NCBI GenBank assembly: GCA_947499095.1
Contig: CANMMR010000006.1
Location: 186,664-250,663 of the forward strand
DNA: 64,000 nt
Origin: an uncultured Erythrobacter sp.
Lineage (GTDB): Bacteria; Pseudomonadota; Alphaproteobacteria; Sphingomonadales; Sphingomonadaceae
Reading direction: 5' to 3'
Position numbers and translations under genes: made by a program
Shown: in pieces, positions 31,114 through 37,463 of the stretch
Layout: each line of letters starts with the position of its first letter
How positions within the stretch are numbered: position 1 is the first letter of the stretch
Notes under the pieces: model-generated
The model's database searches: none
Seen by the model: only the letters and a program-made list of their open reading frames with translations
What the model was told of the DNA's origin: nothing

Positions 31114-32430
31114 TTACCAGAAGGTCTTGTTGAACTCGGTCAAGTGGGTCTCGAACCGTTCGAGGTCCGGGCCGACGAGCGCCAGTCGCGCCTGTGCCGC
31201 AAGCCGCTCCGCCTCTTGCTTGAGCAGGGCCTGCCGTCCTTCGTGTCCGATCGGCACGGCGGCATTGGCCAGCGTGTCCAACATGACTTCCGCGGCAAGC
31301 GGGGACGGCGCCACGCCGCTGCGGATCGCCCCGAAACCGCGCTTCACATAGTGCGCGAAATCGTCGGGCAGGGGGATGACGAGACATTCGTCCTCCTCGT
31401 CGCCGCAAATATGCTTGCGCAGGTCCCGCCGCCCGATTTCGGCAGTTGCCGCGCCGAGCCAGTGCAGCGCGTTGATGGCGGTGAACGGGTCGTTGATGCC
31501 GGGCGATAATGCGCGCAGGCCGATCTCGACCAGTTCGTCGATCAGAAACTGCGGATCCTGCTCCGGCGTGCGCGTAGCACCGATCGTGAAGCTTTCGCGG
31601 ACACGTTCCTCGACCTTGCCCGGGTCGCAGCCGTCGACTTCTACCAACACCATCTTGGGATGCACGAAGTCGCCAGTGCGGACCTTCAACGAGAAGGTGC
31701 AGCCTGAGTCTTTCCCGATGGCCGCGAGGTCGGAGAAATCGATCATCTGTACATAGCCGGTTTTCCAAGCCTCCAGCGGTTCGCCGCCCTTCGGCTCGAC
31801 GGGATCGGTAAACTCGTCCTCGACCGGATAGGTATCCTTGATGGTTTCCAGCAGCCGCTCCCCGATCCCCTTCAGCACCTTGTTGATGCGAATGCTGGAC
31901 GGGATGTGGTTGAGGAAGAAAACGAGCACCGCGACGCATAATGCCATCAAGACATAGGCGACCAGCAGCGACAGTTGCGGTGTGAAGCCGGGCGGGGCGG
32001 TGGCCCCGGCCGTTTCGATCGAGGCTGCTGTCTCGTCTTCGCCCCGCACCGCCCGTAGCACGATCAACGCATAGACGAAGCTGCCGATGAAGGTCGCGAG
32101 GCTCAGCTGGTTGCCGCGATCTTCCATGAAATTGGTCAGCAGGCGCGGGCCGTAATTGCCGCTGGCATAGGCTACGGCGGCGATGGTGATGGAAAAGACG
32201 GTCGAGGCGACGCCGATCATGCTGCCCGCCATCACGCTCAACATGGTGGAGGCGCCATCGGGACGCGCCGGAATGATCCAGCTTGTATCGTTCAGGAATT
32301 CGGCAAAGCCCAGCCGGTCCACCGTAACCATCGCGAAGGCAAGGATTGCCGCGAGGATGGAGAACAACGCCGGATAGAACCAGTAATTGGCGTTCAGTCG
32401 CGACCAGAAAAAGCGGATCTCTGCAGTCAT
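31114..32430 (-). CDS. DUF2254-family membrane protein
   Basis: NYWFYPAL, VFSITIAAVAYASGNYGPRLL, QDPQFLIDELVEIGLRALSPGINDPFTA. Confidence 0.88.
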   Translation of the reverse strand: MTAEIRFFWSRLNANYWFYPALFSILAAILAFAMVTVDRLGFAEFLNDTSWIIPARPDGASTMLSVMAGSMIGVASTVFSITIAAVAYASGNYGPRLLTNFMEDRGNQLSLATFIGSFVYALIVLRAVRGEDETAASIETAGATAPPGFTPQLSLLVAYVLMALCVAVLVFFLNHIPSSIRINKVLKGIGERLLETIKDTYPVEDEFTDPVEPKGGEPLEAWKTGYVQMIDFSDLAAIGKDSGCTFSLKVRTGDFVHPKMVLVEVDGCDPGKVEERVRESFTIGATRTPEQDPQFLIDELVEIGLRALSPGINDPFTAINALHWLGAATAEIGRRDLRKHICGDEEDECLVIPLPDDFAHYVKRGFGAIRSGVAPSPLAAEVMLDTLANAAVPIGHEGRQALLKQEAERLAAQARLALVGPDLERFETHLTEFNKTFW

Positions 32431-33167
32431 TCTTGCCCTTCTGTGCCGGTCTGCTTGGCGAAACCTTTCGCGAAAGCCTCGCGAATGTCGTGGCGGTCTT
32501 TTTCAAACTGCGCAACGGCGACGGCATGGTCGCTGAGGTCTAGTGCCAGCTGGCGCAGCATATCGACGAGGCCTCCACTTCCGCCGTCCGCCTCTTTCCG
32601 CTCGGCAATCCGCGCATAATTGTCGATCATGCGGATGCTGACCGGTGGATACTGGCCGGCAGCCTGTCGGAAGGCGCTGAGCGGGTTGGCGAACAGGCTG
32701 CGGAAGTCCTGACCGATGGCCTGCAGGAACAGCACCGTGCCCACCAGAAGCAAGGGCGTATCCCCCAGCGGTGCCTCCGCATCAATCGACAGCATCGCGA
32801 CGAGCGAGACGATGAGACAGAATGAAAGCCCGGCAATGCTCACTCGGACGAGGGGACGCTCTACCCAGCGATCGATCAGGCGCACACCCAGATTGCCGGC
32901 CGCAAGGCTCAGCACGATCAGCGTGATGGAGAAGTACAGTGTAACGAACGCGGCGTTGATGCCAGCCGCAACGCCCACGAAATCCTTGGCCGTATCGGAG
33001 GTCTCGACTGTCGCCAGGTCGCGCGCCAGAAGCCATGCCGTGCCACCTTCACGGTCGAGCCATAGAATGCCGAGGGCCACCGGCACGGCTGCGATAACCG
33101 CGCAAACTGCCAGCAGCCAGTAATTCGCAAACAGGCGGTGGGCGATCCACCCCGGCAAACCGGTCAT
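32427..33167 (-). CDS. DUF2254-like paralogue, internally shortened
   Basis: NYWLL...YFSITLIVLSLAAGNLGVRLI parallels the neighbour's N-terminus, but the protein is only 246 aa and lacks the RALSPGIND region. Confidence 0.65.
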   Translation of the reverse strand: MTGLPGWIAHRLFANYWLLAVCAVIAAVPVALGILWLDREGGTAWLLARDLATVETSDTAKDFVGVAAGINAAFVTLYFSITLIVLSLAAGNLGVRLIDRWVERPLVRVSIAGLSFCLIVSLVAMLSIDAEAPLGDTPLLLVGTVLFLQAIGQDFRSLFANPLSAFRQAAGQYPPVSIRMIDNYARIAERKEADGGSGGLVDMLRQLALDLSDHAVAVAQFEKDRHDIREAFAKGFAKQTGTEGQE

Positions 33168-33228
33168 GCGAGTTGGTCGAACCAAAATTCTACACCCCAA
33201 GACACCATCGGGAGTTGACGGCAGATCG

Positions 33229-33260
33229 GGAACCTAACGTGCGGCCTCCCATTTCGTTGC
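33229..33260. promoter_or_regulatory. Overlapping divergent EcfG/SigT-type (general stress sigma) promoters
   Basis: Plus strand GGAAC-N16-CATT (33229-33253); minus strand GCAAC-N16-CGTT (33260-33236). Confidence 0.55.
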
Positions 33261-33281: not shown

Positions 33282-34214
33282 ATGGCGGCTAATAAGGCGT
33301 CGCCGAGGGTGGAACGGACGGTGGACGCAGTCGAGAAAGGACTGCTTCTGATTGCTCCTGTCGATGCCAACGCCGTTGGCAATATCGAAAATCTGGTTAC
33401 TCTCACCGCCGGGCAGTACACTTCGGGATCGCTGATCCTGATGGTCAGTTACGGCGCGCATTTCGCATTCATTCTCTACTTCCTGATGACGTCGTTGCAG
33501 CTCGCGCCGCGTTATCGCGTGGTGCCGATCATTTCGGCGGTCGTCATGGCCAGCGCAGGGCTCAGCCTGCTGCGCGAATTCACCACCTGGCAGGAAACCT
33601 ACGAATTCGTCGGCGGCATGTACCAGCCGGTGGCGGAAGGCGAGACGTTCACCAATGCCTATCGCTACGGCAACTGGACGATCACGGTCCCACTGCTGCT
33701 GACCCAGCTGCCGATCGCCTTCGCTCTGGCGCGGCCCGATTTACACAAGCGCGCGTTCCGTATGGCGATCCCGGCCCTACTGATGATCTGGACCGGCCTC
33801 TACGGCCAGTTCGGCGAAACCGGCGACTGGTCGCGGCTCAACATCTGGGGTGTCATCTCGACCGTCTTCTTCGTCTGGCTGATCATCGAGGTGCGCGGCG
33901 TGATCACCGCAGGCATCGCCAACAGCCCTGCTGAACTCAAGGCGTGGCCGAAGAACATCTGGTGGTTCTTCCTTGCAACCTGGGGTCTCTACCCCATCGC
34001 CTATGCGCTGCCGCAGCTCGGCTTCACCGGCGACGTAGTGGTCGTGCGCCAACTGCTCTTCAGCATCGCCGACATCTCGTCGAAGCTGATCTACGGCGTG
34101 ATCCTGTCCCGGTATGTCCTGCGGCGCAGTGCGCTGGAGGGGTATCTGCCCTCGGCCGAGGCGCTTTCGACGACGCCTGCCGGTTCTACGGCAGCCTCGA
34201 TTCGCGGCGACTGA
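33282..34214 (+). CDS. Microbial rhodopsin, NTQ motif (light-driven chloride pump type, ClR)
   Basis: Helix C YRYGNWTITVPLLLTQL with N, T(+4), Q(+11); helix G ADISSKLIYG retinal Lys; 7 TMs; blh immediately downstream. The real start may be ATT 33351 or CTG 33348. Confidence 0.9.
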   Translation: MAANKASPRVERTVDAVEKGLLLIAPVDANAVGNIENLVTLTAGQYTSGSLILMVSYGAHFAFILYFLMTSLQLAPRYRVVPIISAVVMASAGLSLLREFTTWQETYEFVGGMYQPVAEGETFTNAYRYGNWTITVPLLLTQLPIAFALARPDLHKRAFRMAIPALLMIWTGLYGQFGETGDWSRLNIWGVISTVFFVWLIIEVRGVITAGIANSPAELKAWPKNIWWFFLATWGLYPIAYALPQLGFTGDVVVVRQLLFSIADISSKLIYGVILSRYVLRRSALEGYLPSAEALSTTPAGSTAASIRGD

Positions 34215-35038
34215 TGGCGTCACGCCCGATCTCCGGATCGAACCGGGGGTCCTGGCTCGGCGCCGGGGCCCCCTATGTCTTTATCGCGCTGTTCGCCGTG
34301 GCCGGCCTCGCCCAGTTGGCCGGACCGGGCTTGGCGCTGGCAGTCGGACTAGCTCTCTTTATCCTCGGCCTCGGCCATGGGGCGGGCGACGAGAACGACG
34401 GCGAATTGCGCGCTAATTCATGGGCGCTGGTCGCCGCCTACATGGTGACCGGCTCCGCGATCCCCGCGCTCTATCTCGCCTGGCCGGTGCTCGGCCTTTC
34501 GACCTTTCTCGCTTTCTCCGCATGGCATTTCGCCCGCAGTGATAGCGGCATGGACCTGCTTCCACGGCTGGCGATAGCCGGACTTGCGGTGGGAGGAAGC
34601 GCACTGCTCAGGCCACATACGACAGCGAGCGTTTTTACCGCTGCACTCGGCGAAGCGCCGCCGACATTGCTCCTGCTGCTTCTCGCCGTTGGTGGAGGCG
34701 CGGCTTTGCTTGCTGCTGCGACCTCGATGGCACTGCGCCACGCAGGCGCAAAGTCCGCGGGGCTTGCTGCGTTGGCCTGCCTCCTGTTTCACCCGGTCCT
34801 CGCCGTTGGCTTGATCTTTTTCGGCATGCACGCCCTCCCGGTGCAGAAGCGCTAGGTCGCTCGATACGGCGCGTCACAGGTCTTCAAGGCGATCGCATTG
34901 CCTACTGCCGTCGCGACGCTGGCCGCGGCGACAATCGCGCTGGCGGTATGGAGCGGGTGGCTCGCGTTTGACCTTGCGGTCGCGCTCGCATTCGGGATGG
35001 CGACGCCGCATATGCTGACCGAGCGGCTGGAGCGTTAG
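34214..35038 (+). pseudogene. blh: Brp/Blh beta-carotene 15,15'-dioxygenase with a premature TAG at 34853-34855
   Basis: GLGHGAGD, SAWHFA and GMHAL His motifs. The frame continues past the TAG with VARYG...FGMATPHML to a TAG at 35036. TGATG coupling to the rhodopsin. Confidence 0.8.
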
Positions 35039-35039
35039 G

Positions 35040-37157
35040 CTACTCCGCTTCGTCGCCGATTTCGCGATTGAGGAAGGCGAGCAGCATGGCCGCGCGCTTC
35101 GCATCTTCCTCGCGGTCCGCGCCGACCGAATGCCCGCCTTCGATCGCCTCGCGATAGTAGAACGGCTGGCCGAAGGCTTCGAGCTTGGCGGCGGTCTTGC
35201 GCGCATGGCCGGGGTGGACCCGGTCGTCGAGCGTCGAGAGGTAATAAAACACTGCCGGATAATCGGGATCGGGCTGCATGTTCTGGTAGGGCGACCATTC
35301 GCGCATGTAGGCCCAGTCCTCCGGCACGTCGGGATTGCCGTATTCCGCCATCCAGGATGCGCCCGCAAGCAGCTTGTTGTAGCGCCGCATGTCGATTAGC
35401 GGGCTGCCGGAGATGATTGCGCCGTAGAGGTCGGGCCGCTGGTTCGCGACTGCGCCCACCAAGACACCACCGTTCGAGCGGCCAGACGCGGCGATCTTGC
35501 CGGGGGTCGCGAGGCGTTGCGCCACAAGGTCGTCGGCGACCGCGTGAAAATCGTCGAAGCTGTTCTGCCGCTTCTCGCGCAGTGCATCCTCATGCCAGCG
35601 CGGGCCGTACTCGCCGCCGCCACGGATGTTGGCGAGCACATAGGCATTGCCGCTTTCGAGCCAGAAGAGCGAGAGCGGCCCGCTGCGATAGGGTTCGGCA
35701 GTGAGATACTTGGGCGTCTGCGCCGCGCGAAAGCCGCCATAGGCATGGATCAATGTAGGCAGCGGACCTTCCGCGCCCTTGGGCCGGGCGAGGTAGTAGG
35801 GGACCCGCGTCCCGTCCTTCGAGGTGGCGAAGCGCTGCTCCACGGTGAAGCGGCTCGTATCGAACTGCGCCGGCACGGAAGCGATCCGCTTCGCCGTGCC
35901 GTCCCCCGGCACCGCCCACAGCGTCGGCGGGGTGAGCATGCTTTCGATCGTGACGAACACGGTGTCGCCCTTGCCGGAGGTATTGGCGATCTGGATCGTG
36001 CTGTTGTCGGGCAGGTCCATGTCGCGGTTGAACCAGCCGGGATAGCCCGGGCGGACCTCGATCAGCTTGCCCGACACATCGTCGAGCACCTTGACCCACA
36101 GGGTATTCTCCGAGGTCGCAACCTCTTCGACCGACTGCGTTTCGCTGGGCGAAAACACGACGAAAGGCTCCGCTGGTTTGCCGTCGAGCACATCCTGCAG
36201 CGGCCAGGCCACCAGCCAACCGGCTTCGGCCTCCCGATTACGGGTCGTAAGCGGCGAATTGAGCTTGGCGATAACATGGCCGTCGAGCACGGCCTCGAAC
36301 TCGGCATCCTCGGGCAGCGGCAGCGGCACGGTGCTGCCGTTCTCGCGCACGAGCGAATAGTTCGCCGTCCAGAAGCTCGGCCCGCGCCGGATGAAGCGCC
36401 AGCGCGTATCGCCGTCGAGCACGGAGAAGCCGGAGATGCTGACATCGGCCTGCTCACCCTCGGCGATCTGACGGGCGGACGCGAATTCGGTCCCGCGCTC
36501 CCACAATTTCACGAGACGCGGATAGCCGGAGTCGGTCAGCGAGCCTTCACCCTCGTCGGTGCCGACGAACAGCGTGTCCTCGTCGAACCATGCGACGTTC
36601 GATTTTGCCTCGGGCAGGGTGAAGCCGCCGTCGACGAACGCGCCGGTGGTGATATCGAATTCGCGCACCACGTCGGCATCGGTGCCGCCGGGGCTGAGCG
36701 AGATCAGGCAGCGCTCATAGTCGGGCGCGAGGCAGTTCGCGCCATGCCAGACCCAGCTCTCTCCTTCGTCGCGGCCGAGCTGGTCGACATCGATCAGCGT
36801 GCGCCACTCGGGCGCGCCTGTTATGTAACTATCGAGGCTGGCGATACGCCACAGCCCGCGCGGATTGTCCGCATCGCGCCACAAATTGGTGACCATGTCG
36901 CCCTGGATTGCGTCGGGCATGGCGATCTGGCGATCGTCGTCGAGAATCTGCTTCGCCCAGGCCCGCGCGACTGGATATTCGGGCGTCGAGGTAAGCACGG
37001 CCTCGGTATCGGCGTTCCATTCGCGCACCTGCTCCAGCGCCTTCTCGCCCTGGATCTCCTCCAGCCAGATGTAGGGATCATCGGCATCGGTTTCCTGCCC
37101 GAGGGCGGGAGACGATGCAAAAGCAAGCGCGGTTGCGAGCGCCAGACGTGCGATCAT
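35040..37157 (-). CDS. Prolyl oligopeptidase family (S9A) serine peptidase, secreted
   Basis: Signal peptide MIARLALATALAFASSPALG, DDPYIWLEE, GRSNGG nucleophile motif, DDRVHP, GGHS; GGAGAG RBS before ATG 37157. Confidence 0.92.
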   Translation of the reverse strand: MIARLALATALAFASSPALGQETDADDPYIWLEEIQGEKALEQVREWNADTEAVLTSTPEYPVARAWAKQILDDDRQIAMPDAIQGDMVTNLWRDADNPRGLWRIASLDSYITGAPEWRTLIDVDQLGRDEGESWVWHGANCLAPDYERCLISLSPGGTDADVVREFDITTGAFVDGGFTLPEAKSNVAWFDEDTLFVGTDEGEGSLTDSGYPRLVKLWERGTEFASARQIAEGEQADVSISGFSVLDGDTRWRFIRRGPSFWTANYSLVRENGSTVPLPLPEDAEFEAVLDGHVIAKLNSPLTTRNREAEAGWLVAWPLQDVLDGKPAEPFVVFSPSETQSVEEVATSENTLWVKVLDDVSGKLIEVRPGYPGWFNRDMDLPDNSTIQIANTSGKGDTVFVTIESMLTPPTLWAVPGDGTAKRIASVPAQFDTSRFTVEQRFATSKDGTRVPYYLARPKGAEGPLPTLIHAYGGFRAAQTPKYLTAEPYRSGPLSLFWLESGNAYVLANIRGGGEYGPRWHEDALREKRQNSFDDFHAVADDLVAQRLATPGKIAASGRSNGGVLVGAVANQRPDLYGAIISGSPLIDMRRYNKLLAGASWMAEYGNPDVPEDWAYMREWSPYQNMQPDPDYPAVFYYLSTLDDRVHPGHARKTAAKLEAFGQPFYYREAIEGGHSVGADREEDAKRAAMLLAFLNREIGDEAE

Positions 37158-37171
37158 TATTTTCTCTCCAT

Positions 37172-37463
37172 TCAAGCTTCGTCTTCCGGAAACCAGCTGG
37201 CGCCGCCGCCATGGCTCTCGGGCATTGTTTCTATCTCGGTTATCTCGTCGCTCGTCAGGTTTGGGCGACTCCAAGGACTGCCGGACACATGAGAACGCCC
37301 AGTCGAACTCGGCTCTAACAAGTTTCTTCGACTCGAATTCCGCGTCGGCAGGACTAGTCGCGCGAACGAAGCGCGTTGTAAAGAAACCGTATTTCCCTGA
37401 CGGATCGTCCATCAGCTTGCCTGGGAAGTCGTGGCCTTCCAACAGGACCTGATAGACGGGCAC
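37172..37463 (-). pseudogene. Small hypothetical gene with an apparent 1-bp insertion near 37298-37300
   Basis: GTG start coupled to the nadA stop (TAGTG). After EFDW the +1 frame reads RSHVSGSPWSRPNLTSDEITEIETMPESHGGGASWFPEDEA-stop (TGA 37172-37174). The zero frame runs into the peptidase. Confidence 0.55.

What the first reader, a model, noticed from the sequence alone, without database searches (positions are those of the whole stretch)
33282..34214. NTQ-motif chloride-pump-type rhodopsin in an Erythrobacteraceae-like genome
Seen: helix C N33672/T33684/Q33705 with spacing 0/+4/+11, the retinal Lys in DISSK, and an NQ-family N-terminal IENL segment. Established: NDQ marks Na+ pumps (KR2) and NTQ marks inward Cl- pumps (Nonlabens NM-R3, Fulvimarina FR). 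Inference: light-driven Cl- uptake. The gene sits as an accessory two-gene unit between stress-type membrane genes and a peptidase, with no crt genes in the window.
Basis: partly seen in the sequence, partly recalled or inferred. Interest (0 to 1): 0.7.

Follow-up and report, generated by a model that had tools for sequence, protein, structure and literature searches.

The report
Chloride-pump rhodopsin in a damaged gene module
The gene is a genuine close relative of a known light-driven chloride pump of marine bacteria, so it is ordinary in kind, but in this strain the pump gene has lost its usual start codon, the gene that makes its retinal pigment carries a stop codon, and a conserved neighbouring membrane gene has a large deletion, so the system is probably switched off or dying.

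Summary
Observation confirmed. Window 33282-34214 (+) encodes a type-1 rhodopsin with N/T/Q at exactly 33672/33684/33705 and the retinal Lys in DISSK.

It is 76% (global) to 80% (local) identical to FR, the Fulvimarina pelagi NTQ rhodopsin, which is a characterised inward Cl- pump. It is 41% identical to NM-R3. It falls in an FR clade of 22 NTQ sequences (SH-aLRT 100), apart from the NDQ Na+ pumps. The kind has been known in Citromicrobium and Fulvimarina since 2013-14.

New here:
- The partner gene is blh. It is the only blh in the genome and carries an in-frame TAG where all relatives have Gln.
- The rhodopsin's conserved ATG start is CTG in this strain.
- The divergent neighbour, a DUF2254 paralog, has a 546-bp internal deletion.

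The three closest Qipengyuania genomes, 92-93% identical in DNA, have none of these lesions. Reads could not be checked.

crtB, crtI and crtY lie 14-18 kb outside the window. Two same-genus genomes lack the cassette.

DUF2254, rhodopsin and blh, with a conserved 32-bp ECF-promoter-like element, recur as a module in many genera. The literature held here does not describe this.

Verdict: new member of a known kind, probably impaired here; low to moderate interest.

The parts
33282..34214 (+). Rhodopsin ORF as listed from the first ATG (310 aa). The homology-supported protein is the 288 codons from 33348.
33348..33350 (+). CTG at the position of the conserved ATG start codon of the closest relatives. 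AAGGA (33337-33341) lies 6 nt upstream.
   Evidence: L046/L054, L055, L056 and L047 all have ATG here. The upstream ATG at 33282 is closed by a TAG in L047 and put out of frame by a 1-nt deletion in L055.
33672..33707 (+). Helix C motif codons: N (33672-74), T (33684-86) and Q (33705-07).
   Evidence: mapping to NM-R3 N98/T102/Q109; alignment.
34071..34085 (+). D-I-S-S-K: the counterion Asp (NM-R3 D231) and the retinal Schiff-base Lys (NM-R3 K235).
34214..35038 (+). blh (Brp/Blh beta-carotene 15,15'-dioxygenase), 274 codons. Its start overlaps the rhodopsin stop (TGATG).
   Evidence: Pfam BCD covers profile positions 2-261 of 267 only when the TAG is read through, against 2-190 otherwise. This is the only BCD hit in the genome, flagged '1 TAG'.
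34853..34855 (+). In-frame TAG at blh codon 214. It removes the last 60 residues, including the invariant His of TPHML.
   Evidence: orthologs have Gln here (CAG or CAA). No tRNA with a CUA anticodon in the genome.
32427..33200 (-). DUF2254 paralog ('D2'), transcribed divergently from the rhodopsin. It has a 546-bp in-frame internal deletion with its junction at about 32718.
   Evidence: relatives encode 428 aa. The window matches residues 1-151 and 333-428 only.
33229..33260 (.). Conserved 32-bp element GGAAC-N16-CATTTCGTTGC in the D2-rhodopsin intergenic region. Read on the minus strand it is GCAAC-N16-CGTT.
   Evidence: Invariant block inside otherwise diverged flanks. Present at 3 or fewer mismatches in 22 of 45 upstream regions scanned (44 loci plus the window), against 0 of 900 shuffles.
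31114..32430 (-). Full-length DUF2254 paralog ('D1', 438 aa), part of the conserved chromosomal neighbourhood.
35040..37157 (-). S9 prolyl oligopeptidase, convergent with blh. The two stop codons are 1 bp apart. It marks the right border of the cassette.

Best explanation
The ORF encodes an FR-type (NTQ) microbial rhodopsin, an ortholog of the light-driven inward chloride pump of Fulvimarina pelagi. Mechanism, inferred from FR and NM-R3: all-trans retinal is bound to the Lys of DISSK, and Cl- is held at the protonated Schiff base by the Asn and Thr of the motif. Light isomerises the retinal and the anion is passed to the cytoplasmic side past the Gln. A new Cl- enters through the extracellular cavity formed by residues that are all conserved here. 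The gene is the middle member of a conserved module: a divergent DUF2254 paralog, a shared 32-bp ECF-promoter-like element, the rhodopsin, and a translationally coupled blh. In this strain all three genes carry lesions that the three closest Qipengyuania genomes lack. The DUF2254 paralog has lost 546 bp, the rhodopsin start is ATG>CTG, and blh has Q214>TAG. The module therefore most likely makes little or no holo-pump here and is at an early stage of decay. Identity of the gene is shown. Pumping and the functional effect of the lesions are inferred.
For: Identity of the gene:
- Pfam Bac_rhodopsin E 1e-30.
- NM-R3 E 1e-54, against KR2 E 2e-37.
- 80% local and 75.8% global identity to the F. pelagi HTCC2506 NTQ rhodopsin.
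- Member of a clade of 22 NTQ sequences including FR, SH-aLRT 100.
- NM-R3 residues H29, S54, N92, R95, Y96, N98, T102, Q109, Q143, E146, W201, R223, Q224, D231 and K235 are all identical in the window and in FR.
- The roles of these residues come from PMC4999514. FR is described as a Cl- pump in PMC4585134.

Lesions:
- TAG in the only blh of the genome, with Gln in all 7 aligned orthologs and in the three closest Qipengyuania genomes.
- 0 stops in blh in about 30 other loci.
- No suppressor tRNA.
- CTG where 5 loci from 4 close relatives have ATG, and the upstream ATG is not conserved in frame.
- 546-bp deletion in the DUF2254 paralog.

The lesions are recent. On the window branch the rhodopsin has 23 synonymous and 2 non-synonymous changes.

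Module:
- A DUF2254 gene lies divergently next to the rhodopsin in 38 of 44 loci.
- The D2 type occurs in 11 of the 15 rhodopsin-bearing family genomes, against 20 of 201 overall.
- The element is conserved.

Decay elsewhere: stops, a frameshift or deletion remnants in L071, L074, L091, L098 and G034.
Against: - The two point lesions could be assembly errors, although the 546-bp deletion is less likely to be one.
- The rhodopsin ORF is otherwise intact and under strong purifying selection.
- An in-frame ATG (33282), two GTGs and the CTG behind a good Shine-Dalgarno sequence could still give some translation.
- An intact RPE65-family carotenoid oxygenase exists elsewhere in the genome. Environmental retinal could also supply the chromophore.
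- Anion pumping was not measured for this protein.
- The functional link to DUF2254 rests on neighbourhood only. Its predicted fold matches nothing solved.
Confidence: 0.68

Rival explanations
1. The cassette is fully functional. The TAG and CTG are sequencing or assembly errors, or they are tolerated. Translation would start at the upstream ATG 33282 or at CTG. Retinal would come from low-level read-through, from the RPE65-family oxygenase, or from the environment. The strain would then pump Cl- in the light like its relatives.
For: The rhodopsin has 23 synonymous and 2 non-synonymous changes on its own branch. AAGGA lies 6 nt before the CTG and an open in-frame ATG lies 66 nt upstream. An intact carotenoid cleavage oxygenase is at G000:C3:28234-29517. 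crtB, crtI and crtY are intact. Reads could not be inspected.
Against: Three independent lesions hit three adjacent genes of one module, and none is present in the three closest genomes. The truncation removes one of four invariant His residues of Blh. There is no CUA tRNA. The oxygenase is nearest to 9,10-dioxygenases, NCED and lignostilbene dioxygenases, not to a retinal-forming enzyme. The upstream ATG is unusable in L047 and L055, so it is not the ancestral start.
Confidence: 0.24
2. The protein is a rhodopsin with a function other than Cl- import, for example a Na+ or H+ pump, a pump of another anion only, or a sensor.
For: In the NQ-rhodopsin tree the NTQ and NDQ motifs are interleaved, and NTQ needs at least 4 origins or changes. 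The PDB NDQ protein 8qle scores almost as well as NM-R3. No assay exists for this protein.
Against: The protein is 76-80% identical to FR, for which Cl- binding and pumping were measured (citing Inoue 2014). At every one of the 27 NM-R3 positions checked, the window has the same residue as FR. It has Thr rather than Asp at the position that defines Na+ pumps, and the T102D mutation abolishes Cl- pumping in NM-R3. No transducer gene lies nearby.
Confidence: 0.05
3. The cassette is a recent horizontally acquired island rather than an ancestral, repeatedly lost locus.
For: It is absent from two same-genus genomes at the same site. F. pelagi (Hyphomicrobiales) nests inside the Sphingomonadales clade. 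GC is slightly lower, 0.59-0.62 against about 0.66. DUF2254-rhodopsin-blh occurs in other flanks in several genomes.
Against: The chromosomal position EamA-D1-(D2)-rhodopsin-blh-(S9)-NadA is shared by many Erythrobacteraceae genera. No mobility genes or flanking repeats were seen. Remnants show losses in place.
Confidence: 0.2

Closest known systems
FR, the NTQ rhodopsin of Fulvimarina pelagi HTCC2506 (light-driven inward Cl- pump; Inoue et al. 2014 as cited in PMC4585134)
   Same: The window protein is 80% identical locally and 75.8% globally, and sits in the same strongly supported clade. At every one of the 27 NM-R3 positions checked, including the NTQ motif, R, D and K, it has the same residue as FR. 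blh follows the rhodopsin in both (L075).
   Different: The host order differs. The F. pelagi locus has no DUF2254 neighbour. Here the start codon is CTG and blh is interrupted.
NM-R3 / ClR of Nonlabens marinus (PDB 5B2N, 5G28, 6AB9)
   Same: Both have the NTQ motif, the Cl--binding Asn and Thr, the extracellular cavity residues N92/Y96/Q143/E146/R223, Q224, H29 and S54, and the aromatic 3-omega positions (F15>Y, W72, Y83).
   Different: Identity is only 41%. NM-R3 forms a separate flavobacterial clade whose relation to the FR clade is unresolved. K2 is G here, S91 is T, A50 is V and T228 is S.
NDQ Na+ pumps: KR2 (3X3B/4XTL) and the protein of PDB 8QLE
   Same: They belong to the same NQ-rhodopsin superclade, share the N-terminal helix and the N...Q positions, and give E 2e-37 and 8e-53.
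   Different: They have Asp where this protein has Thr. They fall in different clades and pump a cation outward, not an anion inward.
Brp/Blh beta-carotene 15,15'-dioxygenase (Pfam PF15461, TIGR03753), for the partner gene
   Same: The full-length profile match appears when the TAG is read through. The gene sits directly after the rhodopsin, as in about 30 related loci.
   Different: A premature stop at codon 214 of 274 removes the C-terminal helix pair and the invariant TPHML His. The TIGR03753 score of 55.9 is below its cut-off of 95.25 for the truncated product.

Membership tests
Microbial (type-1) rhodopsin, Pfam PF01036 | Seven-helix Bac_rhodopsin domain above the curated cut-off | tested here: met
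   107.2 bits against a cut-off of 24.6, covering profile positions 4-221 of 224.
Microbial (type-1) rhodopsin, Pfam PF01036 | Retinal Schiff-base Lys in helix G, with the Arg and Asp counterion pair | tested here: met
   K268, D264 and R128 (310-aa numbering) align with NM-R3 K235, D231 and R95.
NTQ chloride-pumping rhodopsin (ClR; FR/NM-R3 type) | N, T and Q at the BR 85/89/96 positions | tested here: met
   N131, T135 and Q142, with codons at 33672, 33684 and 33705.
NTQ chloride-pumping rhodopsin (ClR; FR/NM-R3 type) | Phylogenetic placement with a characterised Cl- pump and apart from NDQ pumps | tested here: met
   Clade of 22 NTQ sequences including FR, SH-aLRT 100. Sister relation to NM-R3 is unresolved.
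NTQ chloride-pumping rhodopsin (ClR; FR/NM-R3 type) | Residues lining the Cl- uptake and release path (N92, Y96, Q143, E146, R223, Q224, S54, H29 of NM-R3) | tested here: met
   All are identical in the window and in FR. Their roles are from PMC4999514.
NTQ chloride-pumping rhodopsin (ClR; FR/NM-R3 type) | Light-driven inward anion transport and a Cl--dependent spectral shift | not testable with these tools
   This needs expression with retinal and pH or spectral assays.
Functional rhodopsin photosystem (opsin plus retinal supply) | Intact retinal-forming blh and a beta-carotene pathway in the genome | tested here: not met
   crtB, crtI and crtY are intact. The single blh has an in-frame TAG. 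A bypass through the RPE65-family enzyme is unproven.
Functional rhodopsin photosystem (opsin plus retinal supply) | Canonical start codon at the conserved N-terminus | tested here: not met
   CTG at 33348 where L046/L054, L055, L056 and L047 have ATG. Use of alternative starts was not tested.
NDQ sodium-pumping rhodopsin (KR2 type) | Asp at the middle motif position | tested here: not met
   The residue is Thr, and the protein lies outside the NDQ groups.
Brp/Blh dioxygenase (partner gene) | Full-length BCD domain with four invariant His | tested here: not met
   The truncated product covers profile positions 2-190 of 267 and lacks the TPHML His. The TIGR03753 score is below its cut-off.
EcfG (general stress sigma) promoter, GGAAC-N16/17-CGTT (for the intergenic element) | Exact -35 GGAAC and -10 CGTT at 16-17 nt spacing facing the gene | tested here: inconclusive
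   The plus strand has GGAAC-N16-CATT and the minus strand GCAAC-N16-CGTT, each one base off the consensus. The element is conserved. Sigma-factor dependence was not tested.

The most novel reading that the evidence does not exclude
The DUF2254 paralog is a working partner of FR-type chloride pumps, for example an accessory or regulatory membrane protein or a counter-ion pathway. It would be co-transcribed divergently from one near-palindromic ECF-type (possibly EcfG, stress- or light-responsive) promoter. The three genes would be gained, kept and lost together, and this strain would show the simultaneous decay of all three. This would give a first functional context to the uncharacterised DUF2254 family and a regulatory logic for bacterial Cl- pumps.
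Probability: 0.25. Interest if true: 0.55.

Novelty: new member of a known kind. Interest (0 to 1): 0.27.

Why it matters
As a chloride pump it adds little. FR-type NTQ rhodopsins are characterised and are common in Erythrobacteraceae, with dozens of orthologs at 80-90% identity.

Three points are worth keeping:
- A motif-based call of 'light-driven Cl- uptake' would be wrong or overstated for this strain. The retinal gene and the start codon are damaged. This is a caution for trait prediction from opsin genes alone.
- The locus and its relatives give a natural series of intact, freshly damaged and deleted cassettes. This series is useful for asking when Cl- pumping pays.
- The conserved DUF2254 neighbour and the shared promoter-like element are unreported leads to regulation and to possible partners of bacterial Cl- pumps.

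Tried and rejected
- Amber suppression or a changed code: aragorn found 47 tRNAs and none with a CUA anticodon. Rejected.
- A second blh or a second rhodopsin in the genome: none.
- Alternative retinal source: one RPE65-family oxygenase was found. Its nearest solved relatives are 9,10-dioxygenases, NCED and lignostilbene dioxygenases, so there is no specific support.
- Function of DUF2254: the AlphaFold model was confident (pLDDT 86), but Foldseek against the PDB gave nothing (best E 0.009, TM 0.26 or lower). NCBIfam gave nothing. The literature mentions the family only in a study of knotted folds.
- Canonical EcfG promoter: the exact pattern GGAAC-N14-22-CGTT occurs only in the closest loci, at a 21-nt spacing. 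The element is better described as GGAAC-N16-[CG]ATTT[CG]GTTGC.
- NM-R3 as sister group: not resolved.
- PDB anchors tried through P0131 and P0144 gave no hits. P0145 served as the KR2-cluster anchor.
- More distant NTQ representatives P0123 and P0125 have no DUF2254 neighbour. P0129 lies on a contig too short to tell.
- Foreign composition: only a mild GC dip.

Full report
**1. What is in the sequence**

Window 33282..34214 (+) is an open frame of 310 codons from its first ATG. It carries RYGNWTITVPLLLTQ and ADISSK.

A pairwise map to NM-R3 puts N98/T102/Q109 on codons starting at 33672, 33684 and 33705. K235 and D231 map to 34083 and 34071.

The match is homology, not a chance motif:
- Pfam Bac_rhodopsin scores 107 bits against a cut-off of 24.6.
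- PDB chains of the Nonlabens marinus chloride pump score E 1e-54.
- The NDQ protein 8QLE scores 8e-53 and KR2 scores 2e-37.

**2. Which rhodopsin it is**

In 5.8 billion proteins the query has 529 hits at E of 1e-20 or lower. The 120 best listed are 76-99% identical. Those that carry a name come from Qipengyuania, Altererythrobacter, Aurantiacibacter, Parerythrobacter, Tsuneonella and Sphingomonas.

One hit is FP2506_02250 of Fulvimarina pelagi HTCC2506 (80% over 87% of the query). It has the NTQ motif. It is therefore the NTQ rhodopsin of that strain, called FR in the literature. Global identity is 75.8% to FR and 41.3% to NM-R3.

I built an IQ-TREE of 74 sequences. It included:
- the window protein;
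- orthologs from genomes of the same family;
- 50%-identity representatives from a search of 1.8 billion proteins;
- FR;
- NM-R3, 8QLE and 8JH0, read from the printed PDB alignments;
- a KR2-cluster representative;
- DTE pumps as outgroup.

The window falls in a clade of 22 sequences, all NTQ and including FR, with SH-aLRT 100. The next node out, 23 NTQ sequences, has 99.

The FR clade, the NM-R3 clade and a mostly NDQ group (8QLE, the KR2 cluster) form an unresolved three-way split. The protein is therefore firmly 'FR-type', but not demonstrably sister to NM-R3. NTQ appears in at least four places in the NQ tree, although several of those branches are long.

FR is described as a Cl- pump with Cl--dependent colour change in PMC4585134. 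PMC4999514 shows that the Asn and Thr of the motif bind Cl- at the Schiff base. It also shows that N92 and Q143 are needed for pumping and that T102D kills it. E146, R223 and Q224 line the same cavity. All of these residues, plus H29, S54 and W201, are identical in the window and in FR.

**3. The partner gene and its lesion**

The next frame starts at 34214 and overlaps the rhodopsin stop (TGATG). It is a Brp/Blh beta-carotene dioxygenase.

The frame stops at TAG 34853-34855 and then continues open in the same frame to 35038. Read through, it matches the Pfam BCD profile over positions 2-261 of 267. As it stands, it matches only positions 2-190.

- Seven orthologs align without interruption and all have Gln at that column.
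- The three closest genomes have CAG or CAA there.
- About 30 further loci have an uninterrupted blh directly after the rhodopsin.
- The truncation removes the last 60 residues, including one of four invariant His residues, the one in TPHML.
- The genome has one rhodopsin and one blh only.
- The genome has no tRNA with a CUA anticodon.

crtB, crtI and crtY are intact on the same contig at C6:168382-172572. That is 14-18 kb before the window start. The substrate is therefore probably made, but the cleavage step is broken.

One intact RPE65-family oxygenase exists elsewhere in the genome. Its nearest solved relatives are 9,10-dioxygenases, NCED and lignostilbene dioxygenases. It is a possible but unsupported bypass.

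**4. The start codon**

Most orthologs are 288 aa and begin about 11 residues before GNIENL.

At the corresponding position the window has CTG (33348), preceded by AAGGA at a 6-nt spacing. Qipengyuania sp. 902 (L054, identical to L046), XHP0211 (L055), XHP0207 (L056) and a metagenome contig (L047) all have ATG there.

The upstream in-frame ATG at 33282 is not the ancestral start. L047 has a TAG three codons after it, and L055 has a 1-nt deletion that puts it out of frame.

Translation here must therefore use CTG, one of two GTGs, or the upstream ATG. The upstream ATG would add a charged 22-residue tail to an N-terminus that has to cross the membrane. That last point is inference.

**5. The third lesion and the module**

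The divergent neighbour at 32427..33200 (-) matches only the first third of Pfam DUF2254. Relatives encode 428 aa. The window lacks 546 bp at 32718, which correspond to residues 152-332.

All three adjacent genes are therefore damaged in this strain and intact in the three closest genomes, which are 92-93% identical in DNA.

The damage is recent. On the window's own branch the rhodopsin has 23 synonymous and 2 non-synonymous changes, and one of the two is the start codon. blh has 30 and 12, similar to a relative's branch.

A DUF2254 gene lies divergently next to the FR-type rhodopsin in 38 of 44 loci with enough flank. These include Pacificimonas and Hellea.

Distribution in a sample of 201 genomes of the family:

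| Feature | Genomes |
|---|---|
| D2-type DUF2254 paralog present | 20 |
| FR-type rhodopsin or its remnant present | 15 |
| Both present | 11 (10 adjacent) |
| D2 without rhodopsin | 9 |
| Rhodopsin without D2 | 4 (next to the D1 type instead) |

In many Erythrobacteraceae the site is the same: EamA-D1-(D2)-rhodopsin-blh-(S9)-NadA. In other genomes D2-rhodopsin-blh sits in different flanks.

The intergenic region holds a 32-bp element, GGAAC-N16-CATTTCGTTGC (33229-33260), which reads GCAAC-N16-CGTT on the other strand.
- It is invariant where the flanks have diverged.
- It is found at 3 or fewer mismatches in 22 of 45 upstream regions scanned (44 loci plus the window), against 0 of 900 shuffles.
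- It is one base off the EcfG consensus on each strand. Near-palindromic EcfG sites that fire both ways are reported in Erythrobacter litoralis (bioRxiv 10.1101/641647).
- This is a lead only.

DUF2254 has no known function. A confident model of it (pLDDT 86) has no solved structural relative.

**6. Accessory status and decay**

In the 201 genomes, 14 have an ortholog at 64% identity or more, and all 14 are NTQ.

Two same-genus genomes lack it. G188 has D1 abutting the S9 peptidase. G097 has D2 abutting the peptidase, with no room for the two genes.

Other lineages show:
- a stop in the rhodopsin (L071, L074);
- a frameshift (L091);
- deletion remnants (L098, G034).

The cassette is dispensable and is lost repeatedly. 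GC is only slightly lower than in the flanks.

**7. Verdict**

The gene is an FR-type NTQ chloride-pump rhodopsin. This kind has been known in Fulvimarina and Citromicrobium since 2013-2015 (PMC3595038; PMC4585134).

The inference that this organism takes up Cl- in the light is weakened by three strain-specific lesions in the module. Read data could not be consulted, so a sequencing artefact for the two point changes is not excluded.

The unreported parts are the conserved DUF2254 partner with its shared promoter-like element, and the snapshot of a photosystem at the start of decay.

Noticed in passing
window 32427-33200 (-), junction about 32718: The DUF2254 paralog next to the rhodopsin has a 546-bp in-frame internal deletion (residues 152-332 of 428) compared with Qipengyuania sp. 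902, XHP0211 and a metagenome contig.
   Followed up: yes
window 33229-33260: A 32-bp near-palindromic element, GGAAC-N16-CATTTCGTTGC, is conserved about 100-150 nt upstream of FR-type rhodopsins in about half of the related loci. It is one base off the EcfG consensus on each strand.
   Followed up: partly
L054-L099 (related loci), upstream 3 kb: A DUF2254 gene is the divergent neighbour of the FR-type rhodopsin in 38 of 44 loci across several genera. An AlphaFold model of it (pLDDT 86) has no match among solved structures.
   Followed up: partly
L071, L074, L091, L098; G034:C1:1499493-1499833: Other lineages carry inactivated copies of the same cassette: in-frame stops in the rhodopsin (L071 at the 3-omega Trp, L074), a frameshift (L091), and deletion remnants that fuse rhodopsin and blh pieces (L098, G034).
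   Followed up: partly
window 35036-35042: The blh stop (TAG 35036-38) and the stop of the convergent S9 peptidase (35040-42 on the minus strand) are 1 bp apart. No terminator-like hairpin lies between them.
   Followed up: no
G000:C6:168382-172572 (14-18 kb before the window start): An intact crtB-crtI-crtY cluster lies on the same contig as the rhodopsin, just outside the window.
   Followed up: partly
G000:C3:28234-29517 (L100:1375-2802): An intact RPE65-family carotenoid cleavage oxygenase of 475 aa. Its nearest solved relatives are carotenoid 9,10-dioxygenase, NCED and lignostilbene dioxygenases.
   Followed up: partly
tree: Within NQ rhodopsins the NTQ and NDQ motifs are interleaved, and NTQ needs at least 4 changes. 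Odd variants also occur among 50%-identity representatives (STQ, NTT, NDI, FDQ). Several of these sit on long branches.
   Followed up: no
window 35040-37463 (-): The mechanical ORF of the S9 peptidase (807 aa from a GTG) is about 100 codons longer than the 705-aa gene called in the close relative. The likely start is the ATG before the signal-peptide-like MIARLALATALAF, near 37157.
   Followed up: no
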